Below, in pieces: positions 26,566 through 61,911 of a stretch of 64,000 nt of DNA. The notes under the pieces are model-generated. The model saw only the letters and a list, made by a program, of their open reading frames with translations, made no database searches and was not told the DNA's origin. This stretch comes from Eledone cirrhosa. Lineage: Eukaryota. The stretch spans positions 135,961 to 199,960 of the forward strand of contig CAXHJY010001530.1 in NCBI GenBank assembly GCA_964016885.1. The letters run 5' to 3'. Both the position numbers and the translations under genes were made by a program. The first letter of the stretch is position 1. Each line of letters starts with the position of its first letter.

Positions 26566-27045
26566 TATAAGTATGTATACGTACATACATATATGTATAC
26601 AGACGTACAGTAGTATGTATAGATATATACATATACACATATATATATGTACGTATGGATTCACCAAACATTTATTATAATGCTCGGTGTGTTTGTAAAC
26701 AAACATCCCGTATTAAGCCGTAGTGTCTAGCAACCATCGTTGCTCGTTTGTTTGAAACAAGTACATCGTTCCTTTTTTAGTGTTGAACAAACGAGCGACG
26801 ATGGTTGCTAGACACTGTACGGCTTAATTCGGGATGTTTGTTTACAAACACACCGAGTATTATAATAAATGTTCGGTGAATCCATACGTACATATATATA
26901 TATATATGTGTCCATGTATGTATATAAATATACATACTACTGTACGTCTGTATAAATATATGTATGTACGTATACATACTTATATTTAAGTAGCAACCGT
27001 ACTAAGAGTGAGAAATGAAATTTCGTTTGATTTTTTCCGTTTATT
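26566..27045 (+). mobile_element. Truncated copy of the HHR mini-element family of 61362-61911, with a 5' inverted duplication
   Basis: 26753-27030 is homologous to 61579-61895 (TGAAAC.AGTACATCGTTCC, CATACTACTGTACGTCTGTATA, AAGAGTGAGAAATGAAATTT); arms 26566-26752 and 26786-26984. Confidence 0.8.
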
Positions 27046-27273
27046 TATATATATATATATATATATATATATATATTTCGTTTCTGAATTTGTTTAGCAA
27101 GATTCTTTATCTGAAATCGTGTGTTGAAACCGATATTGTTATACTTTTGGAGGGTCATGTTGCCAATAAGAAACACACGCACCAGTAGTTTCACTTCAGT
27201 TTATTATATAATTATAAATTTATAAATTTCTGGTTGGTTGGTTGGTTCCACAACCAGATAGTTGTTTATATAT

Positions 27274-27318
27274 AGTCATAGTCCTTTCGTCACACACTCT
27301 GTGACCTCTTCAGTGACT
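27274..27318 (-). ncRNA. Minimal type-I hammerhead ribozyme (PLE A)
   Basis: AGTCA-CTGAAGA-GGTCAC...GTGAC-GAAA-GGAC-TA-TGACT. Confidence 0.8.
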
Positions 27319-27530
27319 GGGGATTCCTTTCTTTGTTTCTGTGCCTCTCCTTTGTTCTGTCCTACGCCATTTTGTTTCTGTGTGTGTGTTGTGTGCTCAG
27401 TCTGCGCATGCGCCACATCCGGGTGTCTGTGTGTGTTTATGTTCATTTATCTATTTGTTTATTTATTTATTTATTTACATGTTACTGGTTGGTTGTTTGT
27501 TCTATGTGTGTGTGTGTTTTCATTTTGTCC

Positions 27531-30034
27531 TTAATTGTAAGTTGTGATGTTGCTGTTCCACTCATATTTTCTATTTAATTTTGGTTGTAATTCTTTTATG
27601 TTTATTGCCTCTGTAATTTGTCTAAACATTGCATCTTTTCTGTGTGTAGATTCTATTTTTATTTCTATGTTCTCTAATTTACCCTTGTGTTCTATCTTAG
27701 CATGTTGGTAGAGTACAGATGATTCTTTATTATCTTGAAGGTCTCGCCAGTGTTCATTTATCCGTTCCCCTATTCTACGAGCTGTCTCACCTATGTACAC
27801 TATATTTTTGTCTCTACATTGTCCTTCAGTACATCTTATGCTATACACTACATTTCTACTTTTACAGTTAATATGGGGGCTTATTTTACAGGTTATACAT
27901 TTCTTATCTATACATGAGGGTCTTTGAAAAGGGTATGTCTTGCTAATAAGTGTTTTTACGGAGGTACCTGGTCTTTCTACTATCTTAATATTGAGTTTAT
28001 GTTTATTTAGGGTCCTTCTAAATTTGTAGGCTAGTTCGCCTCTAGGGGTTGTATCGATGAACATTACACTCTGGTATTTATTGCTATCATACCATGAGTT
28101 TATTCTATTAGCCTTGTTCCTAGTTCTTTCTATTCTATTCCAAAATTTGCTCCTATACAAGGGGCAGGTCCCATTTATGTCATTATTTACCATTTTTTCC
28201 CATTTAGTTCTGGCTCCTCTATACACTCTGATTCTATCTCTCTGATTGTAGCCATAGAACTGCATACGGTGGATGAAGTGTTGTATGTGTCTCTCTAGTT
28301 CTTCGGGGTTGCACATGCGGGACACATTTCTCATCACCCGTACCAAATCCGCAATCAGTATGTTGATTTTGGTATGGTCCGAAATGGCCGAGTTTCGGTG
28401 GATCAGATGTTTGGAAGTCATGGGTTTGGCATAATGGGAATCGAGGATTTGTTTTTTGTTGTTAATGGTATCTAACCAGAGCTCTGTGTCTAGTACAGGT
28501 AATCGATGGTTGGGGTGTCTACTTGGGTAGTCTATAGTAACTCTAATGCTCTGGTGGATGGAGTTTGCTATTTGCTGGATACTTTCCATTGTGTTTTTCT
28601 CTAGTTCCTGACTGTTCTCTAGTGGGGGTGTCTTAACTACGATGTTTATATCATCTACGTAGCGGGAGTACATTATCAGGGTTAAGGGGTCTTCTAATTG
28701 TTCTTTAAGTTTAAGTTTAAGTCTACTGTCCCACCATACCATGAATAAGCTATCTCGCCTGCAATGCTAACACCAATGGCTGCTCCTTCCTCTTGGGCAT
28801 ATGTTTTTCCATTAAATTTGAACATATGTTCCTTAAGGGTTAGTTTTATGCTGGCCCCTACCGCATGTGCAATCATTTTTTTCAGTTCATCGTGGTTTTC
28901 GGGTGTCCGTATGGCTCTGGTCCACCCGTTCCATCTATCTGTGTGGGTTTTCTTGGCCATTGAGGTAATGGTAGGTGGTCTGCCTCTTGCTGGTCTTGTA
29001 GGGCACAGGTTGCTAAGGTCATATGTGTCTAGGTAACTATTACTATAGGTAAGCTTAAGTAGAAGTCCCAGCTCACTGGTATCAATCCCACGGAACTCAA
29101 CCTTGCTCTCACTGATCATTTCTACGCATTTCTCCACAGCAAAATCGACGTCAATAGATGGATACAAGGACACAACATCCATACTGCCTATTATGCAGTT
29201 TGTTAGGTCCCCAGATCGGTTACTCACGCCGATTCTGCTGAGGAGGTCCTCCGTGCTGTCACATACATCTGGGGATATTTCAATGATGGGGCGTATGATC
29301 AGGGAGAGGAAGTAGGACAGTCTGTAGTTACTAGCAATGTTAGCTCCACAGACTGGCCGTGTTGGTGGTCCCGAGACAGGGTCACAGCCCGTTTTATGGT
29401 CTTTTCGAAGCCCATACAACGCCGGCACGTCATTGTTCCAGGCCTGGAAGTTGTTGGCAGTCCTTTTGTTGGGCTTTTTTATATTCGTCCACATCACCAT
29501 ATGGGCATTGAGGGCTTTTTCTCTATCCACATGCTCCTGTGGTGTTACCTCTCTTGTGTTAGTGATGTGGGGTTGCATTGCCTGGATGTAGTTTGGCAGG
29601 CTGTCGACCGACATTCTGCCAGACATGTCTGTTGGAAAGCATGCTATCTCTGCATTACGTGAGCGCTGCATGAGCTTACGCAGCCCATTTGCAGATTTTT
29701 CTCCCAGTTGCTGGGCCTCTATTCTATTATGCTTCTTGCTATACTGTTCTATAATATTTCTAAGTTCGGATCTAGCTATACTAAATTGTGCTTCTGTTTG
29801 TTCATCGACCTGCGACGGCAATTGCGTGCGTTTGTTAAATGGTAAAGTCGTGGCGTGGACTCGTCGTAGGTCGAATGATTTATCGGAGGGATTATAAAAC
29901 GGAGAGTTCCAGGCTGCTGCTTTATGTGTACTAGTGCTATTGTTATTGTTAGTTGTGTTGTTTCTATTTCTATTTCCACCAACGGCCTCATGGTTGTTTC
30001 TATGTCTCTCATAATTACTCCTGTCTCTTTCCAC
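27531..30034 (-). pseudogene. PLE RT-GIY-YIG polyprotein split by one frameshift near 28750
   Basis: Motifs RKDHK, PPTRPV, MDVVSLYPSID, GAAIG, RYVDD; C-x4-C-x2-C linker; NVVYSIRC..VYIGETAR..R..EH (GIY-YIG). Confidence 0.9.
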
Positions 30035-59385: not shown

Positions 59386-59423
59386 AGAAAGATTTGAATG
59401 GATACAGTTTAGTTGAAAGGAAT

Positions 59424-59541
59424 TTATTGACACGTGTTTCTATAACAGTTACATAACCTAAAACAGCTATCTACAAACTTTTAGTTATGCAGACATTCAA
59501 TATTTCAATGTTATTATTTACTGTCATTTCATCGGATTACT
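59424..59541 (-). ncRNA. Degenerate hammerhead within a ~250-bp orphan island (59386-59633)
   Basis: Minus strand: CCGATGA-aaATGACAGT...ACTGTTATa-GAAA-CACGTG-TC; U4>C change and weak stem I. Confidence 0.5.
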
Positions 59542-61361
59542 TTTGGAACTACAACTGGAACCGTCGAGCAAACTCTACGTGAGCTGATAATCTACTGTGT
59601 GTAATATTTATATTACAACACAACGGAAAATACTGTATATATATATACATATATATATATATATATATATATACATATATACATACATATATATATATAT
59701 ACATATATATATATATATACATACATATATATATACATATATACATACATATACATATATATATATATACATACATATATATATATATACATATATATAT
59801 ATATATACATATATATATACATATATATATATATATATAGATATATATATACATATATATATATATATATATATATATATACATATATACATACATATAT
59901 ATATATATACATATATATATATATACATATATACATACATATATATATATATATACATATATATATATATACATATATACATACATATATATATATATAT
60001 ACATATATATATATACATACATATATATATATACATATATATATATATACATACATATATATACATACATATATATATATATATATACATACATATATAT
60101 ATATACATACATATATATATATATATACATACATATATATATATATACATACATATATATACATACATATATATATATAGATAATTTAATATATCAACTA
60201 ACATAAGCGCACAGATGCACGCCCATGCCAGCAAATACACAGGTTATGTCATAGTACCTAGGTGGTTCAATGCAGGAGAATGCAGAACAATAATATAAAG
60301 GACGTAAAATAAGAAAATATTTTTTTAAAAAAAATTTTAAAAAAAATTTTTTACTTACTTGTATATATATACATACATATATATATATACATACATATAT
60401 ATATATATATATATATACATACATATATATATATATACATACATATATATATATATACATACATATATATATATATATATACATACATATATATATATAT
60501 ATATATATATATATACATACATACATACATATATATACATATATATATACATATATATATACATATATATATATATATACATATATATATATATATATAT
60601 ATATATACAAATATATATATATACATACATATATATATATATACATATATATATATATATATATATACATATATATATATATACATATATATATATATAT
60701 ATATATACATATATATATATATATATATACATATATATATATATATATATACATATATATATATATATATATATACATATATATATATATATATATATAC
60801 ATATATATATATATACATATATATATATATATATATATATATATATATACATATACATATATGTATATATATATACATATATATATATATATACATATAT
60901 GTATATATATATACATATACATATATGTATATATATATACATATATGTATATATATATACATATATATATATATATACATATATGTATATATATATACAT
61001 ATATGTATATATATATACATATATATATATATATACATATATGTATATATATATACATATATGTATATATATATACATATAGATATATATATATACATAT
61101 ATGTATATATATATACATATATGTATATATATATACATATATATATATACATATATATACATATATGTATATATATATACATATATATATATACATATAT
61201 ATATATATATATATATATATACATATATATATATATATATATATATATATATATATATATATATATATATATGTATATATATATATATATGTATATATGT
61301 ATATATATATATATATATATATATGTATATATATATATATATATATATATATATATATATA

Positions 61362-61911
61362 TAATTTGCATATCGAGTGAGCTAAGTCGGTCAGTGAGAA
61401 ATGAAATTTCGTTTTCATTTCATTTCAACTTATCGTTTTCGGTATGCCTGACCGACTTAGCTCACTCGATATGCAAATTAGGCTGCTCAGCCGTTAATTT
61501 TCATAAAGAAAGTATATACTTTCGAACATCCAACTATCTGGCAGATGGGTATACGGTGCTGATGATAGCTAACAAGCTTGAAACTAGTACATCGTTCCTG
61601 TGTCAGTGTTGAACAAAAAGGTGACGTGGTTGCCTTAACACCGTACGGCATACAAATTCAGGTTGTTCAGTTTGTTTACAAACGAACAAAGCGGCGTTAT
61701 AATAAGCGTCCGCTAAACTGATACGTGCATATAGGTATATGTACCTGTATGTATATGTGTATATATATATATATATATATATATATATATGTATATGCAT
61801 ACTACTGTACGTCTGTATACATATATGTATGTACGTATACACACATACATTTAAGTAAGTGCCGAATAAGAGTGAGAAATGAAATTTAGTTTTCATTTTA
61901 TTTCAACTTAT
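61362..61911 (+). mobile_element. ORF-less HHR mini-element (retrozyme-like): ~478-bp monomer, 41-bp terminal redundancy, 33-bp 5' inverted repeat
   Basis: Direct repeat 61393-61433 / 61871-61911; inverted repeat 61362-61394 / 61448-61480; (TA)n on both sides. Confidence 0.75.
61553..61595 (+). ncRNA. Minimal type-I hammerhead ribozyme, intact core
   Basis: ACGGTG-CTGATGA-TAGCT aaca AGCTT-GAAA-CTAG-TA-CATCGT. Confidence 0.85.

What the first reader, a model, noticed from the sequence alone, without database searches (positions are those of the whole stretch)
26566..61480. Six independent insertions carry a 5' inverted duplication (33 bp to 5.6 kb)
Seen: strand switches at ~26752, ~30474, ~33784, ~37777, ~52762 and ~61394, in four families. 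Each inverted arm duplicates sequence also present in the sense copy, unlike the mostly non-overlapping L1 twin-priming inversions. In three cases the inverted arm stops ~60-135 bp short of the sense 3' end. Known: inverted 5' segments occur in Penelope elements. Inference: here fold-back second-strand priming looks like the rule, making PLE insertion a generator of palindromes.
Basis: partly seen in the sequence, partly recalled or inferred. Interest (0 to 1): 0.75.

Follow-up and report, generated by a model that had tools for sequence, protein, structure and literature searches.

The report
Head-to-head Penelope insertions, two fixed starts
These mirror-image insertions are a known footprint of Penelope-like jumping genes, but genome-wide each one pairs a long-ended half with a short-ended half of the same sequence variant, which suggests that both cut ends of the host DNA likely copy one RNA from two fixed starting points rather than one copy folding back on itself.

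Summary
All six strand switches are real and belong to four Penelope-like (PLE) families. Three are full head-to-head insertions with one tailed (L) and one untailed (S) end. The other three have short inverted pieces that end internally. The layout is already described (PMC8557442, PMC3846280). A positional census found an inverted junction in 43 of 55, 25 of 39 and 24 of 40 loci of three families: common, not universal. Of 82 junctions with both outer ends at family ends, 81 pair L with S. The one L/L locus is the only one whose arms differ in haplotype. Single copies end at L or S about equally (21:18). Arms share one haplotype, yet the S arm reaches further 5' as often as the L arm (21 vs 22), so many loci are not nested. 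That rules out simple fold-back as the rule. Best reading (0.6): both cut target strands prime reverse transcription at two fixed sites on one RNA, and the cDNAs are then end-joined. I found this in no paper, but this scan noted it before on other DNA, including this genome. Added here: the haplotype test and the strict pairing count. Interest 0.5.

The parts
46937..52762 (-). Family D PLE, S arm (no tail), unit positions 684-6332; carries a later SINE-like insertion
52758..58520 (+). Family D PLE, L arm, unit positions 669-6469; 5'-truncated ORF (RT with YRDD, CxCX5C linker, GIY-YIG endonuclease), long microsatellite-rich 3' UTR, pLTR
52758..52762 (.). Inversion junction of D: 5-nt microhomology TTGAA, followed by a 10-nt spacer before the arms pair
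50646..50830 (-). About 185-bp SINE-like repeat in the S arm only, flanked by a 17-bp target duplication; shows that the arms have separate histories
58178..58178 (+). 5' hot spot of family D (unit 6127; 16 of 103 arm 5' ends exactly here, 33 within 6120-6145); inferred transcription start
58175..58330 (+). Hammerhead-like fold in the D pLTR (CTGAAGA core, long stem II, GAAA); cleavage not tested
   Evidence: (centroid structure, z -7.4), sequence
58384..58520 (+). 137-nt tail of D between the S end and the L end
27073..30473 (-). Family B PLE, L arm with 60-nt tail and most of the ORF (YVDD, CX4CxxC linker, GIY-YIG; broken by a frameshift)
30474..32035 (+). Family B PLE, S arm, unit 2438-4024; 16 differences in 1546 sites from the L arm
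32827..33783 (-). Second family B copy, S-ended arm, unit 3036-4024
33785..34038 (+). Inverted partner of the second B copy, unit 2840-3093; only 58 bp overlap; ends internally against a LINE fragment
37696..37777 (-). Family C, 82-bp inverted piece (unit 1393-1473), nested in the sense copy, internal outer end with AT-rich likeness to the flank
37776..41028 (+). Family C PLE, L-ended sense copy, unit 856-4097, broken ORF (CxCX5C, GIY-YIG), pLTR with 98-nt tail
26562..26752 (-). Family E (about 420-nt non-coding hammerhead repeat), S arm
26752..27044 (+). Family E, L arm with tail of about 56-61 nt
61362..61394 (-). Family E, 33-bp inverted piece identical to 61448-61480, internal outer end
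61395..61899 (+). Family E partial tandem: piece of tail, then one full unit to the L end, with a minimal hammerhead core

Best explanation
These are head-to-head insertions of Penelope-like elements in (TA)n tracts, each pairing one tailed (L) arm with one untailed (S) arm of the same haplotype, and they are likely made by programmed twin priming: both cut target strands would prime reverse transcription on one RNA at two fixed start sites. Steps: (1) The element's RNA likely starts at a fixed site in the pLTR (inferred from a 5' pile-up in three families). (2) The GIY-YIG endonuclease cuts both strands of (TA)n (target shown; double cutting taken from PMC11167929 in vitro). (3) One 3' end primes at L, the other at S, 56-137 nt upstream (the strict L/S pairing is shown; priming is inferred, and matches the two start sites mapped in vitro). 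(4) Both cDNAs run towards the RNA 5' end over the same stretch, the trailing one displacing the other (inferred). (5) Each stops on its own or both run off the RNA end, and the two ends are joined with 0-5 nt of microhomology or a small filler (junctions shown). If one cDNA fails, a single L- or S-ended copy results; if the second primer anneals elsewhere, an L1-like internal inversion results (37777, 61394, perhaps 33784).
For: L/S pairing in 73 of 73 fully resolved junctions, plus 8 more resolved later: 81 L/S, 0 S/S, 1 L/L. That one (L119) has arms differing at 84 of 2546 sites and looks like two events. Single copies end at L 21 times and S 18 times, so independent choice would give L/S half the time. 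One haplotype: family D arms show 0 differences at 86 family-polymorphic sites in 45 of 46 loci (about 282 expected from other loci) and in 4 more; B 16 of 464 vs 176 expected, C 14 of 390 vs 132 expected. Not nested: S further 21, L further 22, within 15 nt 30, of 73. Tail-only arm plus body with no overlap: L229, L251, and an opposite-strand joint of that type in raw reads of three independent samples (40749/40979; 60, 27, 42 reads, one RAD site). Both arms often end at the same 5' hot spot, once with a 167-nt filler between them (L137). Microhomology of 2 nt or more in 16 of 25 direct joins vs 22% by chance. PAc protein nicks and extends both strands and starts RT at two sites that bound the tail (PMC11167929).
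Against: No intermediate or de novo insertion was seen; all is read from finished copies. Copying one RNA stretch twice needs strand displacement, not shown for any PLE in what I read. Near-symmetric junctions away from the hot spot (52762, L108, L117, L233) fit fold-back equally well. The shorter arm is usually much shorter than single copies are (about 0.2-1.6 kb vs 2-6 kb in D), so the two arms are not independent draws; later one-sided deletion could also give this. The age test against later deletion points the right way but is not significant (4/8248 vs 12/10030 differences, p 0.13). One haplotype does not separate one RNA from two RNAs of one donor. 18 of 43 D junctions have inserted or unresolved bases. 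No target duplication can be read in (TA)n.
Confidence: 0.6

Rival explanations
1. Fold-back: one cDNA primed at L folds back at its 3' end, copies itself as far as S and is joined there; later one-sided deletions at the palindrome centre blur the nesting.
For: Explains the single haplotype and L/S pairing. The 52762 junction is a native 5-bp stem with a 10-nt loop. Near-symmetric junctions away from the hot spot are more frequent than independent truncation would give (L108, L117, window). Self-priming was proposed in print (PMC3846280). Central deletion in long palindromes is recalled knowledge, not from a call.
Against: 21 of 73 junctions have the S arm further 5', some with 0-2 differences between arms (L135 0/763, L102 2/2744), while near-perfect palindromes of 4-6 kb survive long enough to collect more differences and a SINE. 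S is the 3' end of 18 uninverted copies. Palindromes at the hot spot with no loop, or with a foreign filler, are hard to make by fold-back priming.
Confidence: 0.17
2. Twin priming on two sister RNAs from the same donor locus, held by an asymmetric protein pair, with no strand displacement.
For: Explains non-nesting, both arms ending at the hot spot, and shared haplotype if one donor is active per cell. Needs no displacement.
Against: Does not explain junctions where both arms stop within 15 nt of each other far from the hot spot. Needs an extra rule for strict L/S. Many haplotypes coexist among young copies (86 polymorphic sites) yet only 1 of 50 loci has mixed arms.
Confidence: 0.13
3. Ordinary non-overlapping twin priming on a multimeric or circular RNA: the S primer lands on an upstream unit, so the arms only look duplicated.
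For: Tandem and multi-unit arms exist (three units per arm at L114); hammerhead-like folds could make circles. Short S arms confined to the pLTR beside long L arms (L125, L087) fit a pLTR-unit RNA directly.
Against: Both arms often end at the same 5' hot spot, and a linear RNA has only one 5' end, so that stretch was copied twice. A circle has no run-off point and needs displacement anyway.
Confidence: 0.07
4. Self-priming on an antisense RNA template (PMC3846280).
For: Proposed to explain head-to-head rather than tail-to-tail layout; head-to-head dominates here too.
Against: Also predicts nested arms; 5' ends pile up at one site in sense orientation; PAc copies sense RNA in vitro.
Confidence: 0.02
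5. Assembly artefact from fold-back reads.
For: The window lies on a small unplaced contig and ends in a near-identical tandem duplication; no long reads were available.
Against: Arms differ at 8 of 3865 sites and by a SINE with target duplication; outer ends differ in a fixed way; the same layout is on the largest contigs; a short-read contig of another sample holds the loop-free hot-spot palindrome (X4) and four runs show an opposite-strand joint at the C hot spot (though that site is an 8-bp palindrome and library chimeras are possible).
Confidence: 0.01

Closest known systems
Endonuclease-bearing PLE insertions with an inverted 5'-truncated copy and one-sided tail (Craig 2021 PMC8557442, passages and sections 3, 11; Arkhipova 2013 PMC3846280, passages and section 11)
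   Same: Head-to-head inverted arm, partial tandems, tail on one end, hammerhead in the pLTR, (TA)n target, palindromes at the junction.
   Different: Tails here are 56-137 nt, not 30-40. The papers call the tail optional and ascribe it to endonuclease resolution, and the inversion to self-priming; here the pairing is strict (81 of 82), arms share a haplotype and are often not nested.
PAc (Poseidon, green anole) in vitro (Frangieh 2024 PMC11167929, parts 1-2 of 4 read; supplements not seen)
   Same: Two RT start sites bounding the tail, AT-rich target, both strands cut and extended, predicted dimer.
   Different: That paper does not link the two sites to the inverted layout in the parts read, and reports no strand preference of start site; here the two ends always take different sites. 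Start sites there lie inside the ORF, here upstream of it (D ATG is 152 nt after L).
LINE-1 twin priming (10.1101/2024.08.27.596794, passages)
   Same: Both nicks prime on one RNA, cDNA ends anneal by microcomplementarity, internal duplication when the first cDNA passes the second primer (17%).
   Different: In L1 the second site is a chance annealing and overlap is the minority; here the second site is fixed next to the 3' end, so most of the insert is duplicated.
Hydra clade (families C, D) and Neptune-like PLEs (family B), after PMC8557442
   Same: C, D: RWR/RWK, DKT (D), CxCX5C linker, CxxC and CxH, (TA)n target. B: CX4CxxC linker and two cysteines between GIY and YIG.
   Different: Units are 4.1 and 6.5 kb, longer than the <3 kb given for Hydra; no tree was built.
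Animal non-LTR retrozymes (10.64898/2026.07.22.740005, abstract start and one passage)
   Same: Family E is a non-coding, tandem, hammerhead-bearing unit with PLE-type ends.
   Different: Its partner PLE was not identified; cleavage and circles not tested.

Membership tests
EN+ Penelope-like elements | Single ORF with RT and C-terminal GIY-YIG endonuclease | tested here: met
   Intact 812-aa ORF in a genomic D tandem; YRDD/YVDD and YIG motifs; Pfam GIY-YIG for C at E 7e-4, below the cut-off; no Pfam or PDB hit for D and B, so D and B rest on motifs
EN+ Penelope-like elements | pLTR from partial tandem, direct or inverted | tested here: met
EN+ Penelope-like elements | One-sided tail | tested here: met
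   56-137 nt, on one arm in 81 of 82 junctions
EN+ Penelope-like elements | Hammerhead motif in the pLTR | tested here: inconclusive
   Core motifs visible in all four families and a fitting fold for D; no hammerhead among the 150 Rfam rows listed, which were microsatellite noise; cleavage not testable
EN+ Penelope-like elements | RT groups with PLE/telomerase RTs in a tree | not tested
   No reference set was fetched
Hydra clade (C, D) | RWK-like, DKT, CxCX5C linker, CxxC and CxH, (TA)n target | tested here: met
   against PMC8557442 section 11; DKT seen in D only
Hydra clade (C, D) | Short element (<3 kb) and phylogenetic placement | tested here: inconclusive
   Units 4.1 and 6.5 kb; no tree
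Neptune-like (B) | CX2-5CxxC linker and CCHH endonuclease | tested here: inconclusive
   CX4CxxC found; cysteines and histidines read by eye; no tree
L1-type twin priming | Both halves from one RNA | tested here: inconclusive
   One haplotype shown; one RNA vs sister RNAs not separable
L1-type twin priming | Second primer at a chance internal site, mostly non-overlapping halves | tested here: not met
   Fixed S site and large overlap in most loci; internal ends only in a minority
L1-type twin priming | Target-site duplication around the whole insert | not testable with these tools
   Both flanks are (TA)n
Fold-back (self-primed) duplication | Second arm nested inside the first | tested here: not met
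   S arm further 5' in 21 of 73

The most novel reading that the evidence does not exclude
Penelope-like elements of at least two clades integrate by an obligatory two-primer reaction: one protein complex holds one RNA and puts the two cut target ends on two fixed start sites, so second-strand synthesis is replaced by a second reverse transcription with strand displacement. Tail, inverted arm and single copies are all outcomes of this one reaction, and PLEs routinely seed multi-kilobase palindromes, here in tens of thousands of loci.
Probability: 0.5. Interest if true: 0.75.

Novelty: new variant of a known kind. Interest (0 to 1): 0.5.

Why it matters
The PLE transposition cycle is called undefined in the literature (PMC8557442), and the tail and inverted arm are its unexplained marks. 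The strict L/S pairing with one haplotype turns this into a direct test with an existing in vitro system. It also means one retroelement class is a large source of long palindromes in this genome (474, 8795, 6110 and 19309 exact matches to one short pLTR word in the four families), which bears on assembly and genome stability. The layout itself is not new.

Tried and rejected
Rfam scan: only microsatellite-driven miRNA noise in the 150 rows shown. PDB sequence search with the D protein: nothing at E below 0.49. Pfam: no RT hit. Target-duplication search: unreadable in (TA)n. Run search: no RNA holder listed and no long-read run, so the transcription start and the window's junctions were not checked in reads. 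First k-mer map was swamped by microsatellites and redone. L113 first looked S/S and proved to be an L/S locus beside a separate copy of another haplotype. Age test for later deletion not significant. The 'twin hairpin' lead from earlier notes: small hairpins follow both ends in C, not clearly in D or B by folding 60 nt. Literature searches for a PLE twin-priming model found none; subscription papers (for example Arkhipova 2006) and the original L1 twin-priming paper (not held) were not seen, and no supplement was opened. No complex was predicted.
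Full report
Observation. A masked self-alignment and the sequence show all six strand switches. The window is G000:C1557:135961-199960, the end of a 200-kb contig of a 3.0-Gb genome. Four families are involved: D (unit 6469 bp, intact 812-aa ORF in a tandem elsewhere), B (4084 bp), C (4097 bp) and E, a non-coding hammerhead repeat of about 420 bp. Each family has two 3' ends, L and S, 137, 60, 98 and about 56-61 nt apart. Junctions 26752, 30474 and 52762 join an S arm to an L arm. 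At 33784 only 58 of 254 bp overlap and the arm stops at a LINE fragment. At 37777 and 61394 short nested pieces end internally.

Census. Exact pattern searches list their first 100 matches in genome order. For D these form 55 clusters; 36 are minus-then-plus and none plus-then-minus. Neighbouring pairs within 6 kb: B 18 head-to-head, 0 tail-to-tail; C 21 and 2. I fetched all 55 D clusters, 40 of 80 B clusters (the first 39 plus one tandem picked as reference in place of the 40th) and the first 40 of 76 C clusters. One search found inverted junctions in 42 of 55, 24 of 40 and 26 of 40 stretches. Corrected by hand: D gains L113 (43 of 55); B loses L231 (junction of a neighbour), gains L203 and merges L213/L214 (25 of 39); C loses L266 and L270 (neighbour junctions, and duplicates of each other; 24 of 40). 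Inverted loci have two chances to match the pattern, so B and C are somewhat overstated. In E, 11 of 23 stretches show a junction by eye, six of them L/S. Inversion is common, not universal.

End rule. Those 5, L113, L203 and L213/214 resolved as L/S; L119 resolved as L/L. Total 81 L/S, 1 L/L, 0 S/S. Uninverted copies end at L 21 times, S 18 times, elsewhere 4 times (this tally predates the regrouping of L113, L203, L213 and L214, which it counts as single).

Haplotype. At 86 sites polymorphic in family D, the two arms differ nowhere in 45 of 46 loci (the window and hand-picked long loci included), against about 282 differences expected from other loci; three loci missing from that table and L113 also gave 0. 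The exception is L119, the L/L locus: its left arm is 2% from all others, its right arm 0.6%, so it looks like two events. Older B and C give 16 of 464 (176 expected) and 14 of 390 (132 expected). The arms come from one template or one donor.

Nesting. Fold-back from an L-primed cDNA needs the S arm inside the L arm. Of 73 junctions, L reaches further in 22, S in 21, and 30 are within 15 nt. In single-unit loci such as L134 (S from 799, L from 5385) each arm holds sequence that the other lacks. L229 and L251 are tail-only plus body. Loci with kilobase S excess are no older than near-perfect long palindromes (4/8248 vs 12/10030, p 0.13), which weakens but does not exclude later deletion.

Junctions and 5' ends. 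In D, 25 of 43 joins are direct, 16 with 2-5 nt microhomology (22% expected, p 1e-5); 18 have inserted or unresolved bases. 5' ends pile up at D 6127 (33 of 103 arms within 26 nt), C 3775-3777 (28 of 76 within 23 nt) and more loosely B 3754-3772 (12 of 79). In D and C this is the A of a TCA, like an initiator (consensus recalled, not from a call). I infer the RNA 5' end. Both arms often stop there, so the same 5'-most stretch was copied twice. A contig from another sample holds the loop-free D palindrome, and raw reads show opposite-strand joints in C.

Mechanism. The simplest account is twin priming at two fixed sites. PAc in vitro cuts and extends both strands and starts at two sites bounding the tail. 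L1 twin priming gives internal duplications when the first cDNA passes the second primer. Shown here: target, end rule, haplotype, non-nesting, junctions. Inferred: priming at both ends, one RNA, displacement, host end-joining. Fold-back may still make a minority; 52762 fits either. The shorter arm is usually short, which suggests that two polymerases compete for one template, but is also what one-sided deletion would leave.

Comparison. The inverted copy and one-sided tail are described; self-priming on antisense RNA was the printed explanation. Six searches found no PLE twin-priming model in the held library; closed papers and supplements may hold one. By motifs C and D resemble Hydra and B Neptune, so the rule spans two clades if that holds in a tree. 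I stated my reading before the look-up; earlier AI notes of this scan reach the same model on other DNA and in this genome. They are not independent evidence; one gave me the Hydra lead. 10.1101/2024.12.14.628481 (passages) concerns chromosomal foldbacks and was not used.

Verdict. Interest 0.5.

Noticed in passing
window 59400-64000: Tandem duplication of about 2.28 kb (99.1% identical, differences mostly gaps in the microsatellite) that repeats the 61394 junction at about 63670, at the contig end; may be real or an assembly duplicate.
   Followed up: partly
window 41552-42740: 3' fragment of a further GIY-YIG element (Pfam E 1.6e-4), a fifth PLE-like family, with no inverted arm seen.
   Followed up: no
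window 25275-26454 and 34039-35441: Two copies (83% alike) of a 5'-truncated LINE ending in (GAT)n, RTE-like by recalled motifs; the second abuts the 33785-34038 arm.
   Followed up: no
window 50646-50830, 8991-9215, 18028-18126, 21111-21792: SINE-like family of about 190 bp; one copy sits in the D palindrome with a 17-bp target duplication.
   Followed up: partly
G000:C2:36291015-36329535 (L114, L313, L314): About 38-kb palindrome of three tandem D units per arm, 0 differences in 3196 compared sites near the centre, still one L and one S end; suggests a circular or multimeric template.
   Followed up: partly
L113 (G000:C2:32301108-32318000): A tandem of an internally deleted D unit of another haplotype lies directly against the L end of a head-to-head D insertion; possible homing into its own pLTR.
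   Followed up: partly
L213-L214 (G000:C1:13322947-13335479): Near-full-length B arms (8 differences in 3872) separated by 4 kb of unrelated DNA at the centre.
   Followed up: partly
window 61480 and L298: Two family E inverted pieces end near unit position 45-49, possibly a third start site.
   Followed up: no
window 53640-53980: Asparagine/lysine/threonine-rich insert in the D ORF between RT and endonuclease, like the N-rich inserts in PMC3846280.
   Followed up: no
window 24196-24455 and 24819-25078: 260-bp direct repeat, 91% alike, not assigned.
   Followed up: no
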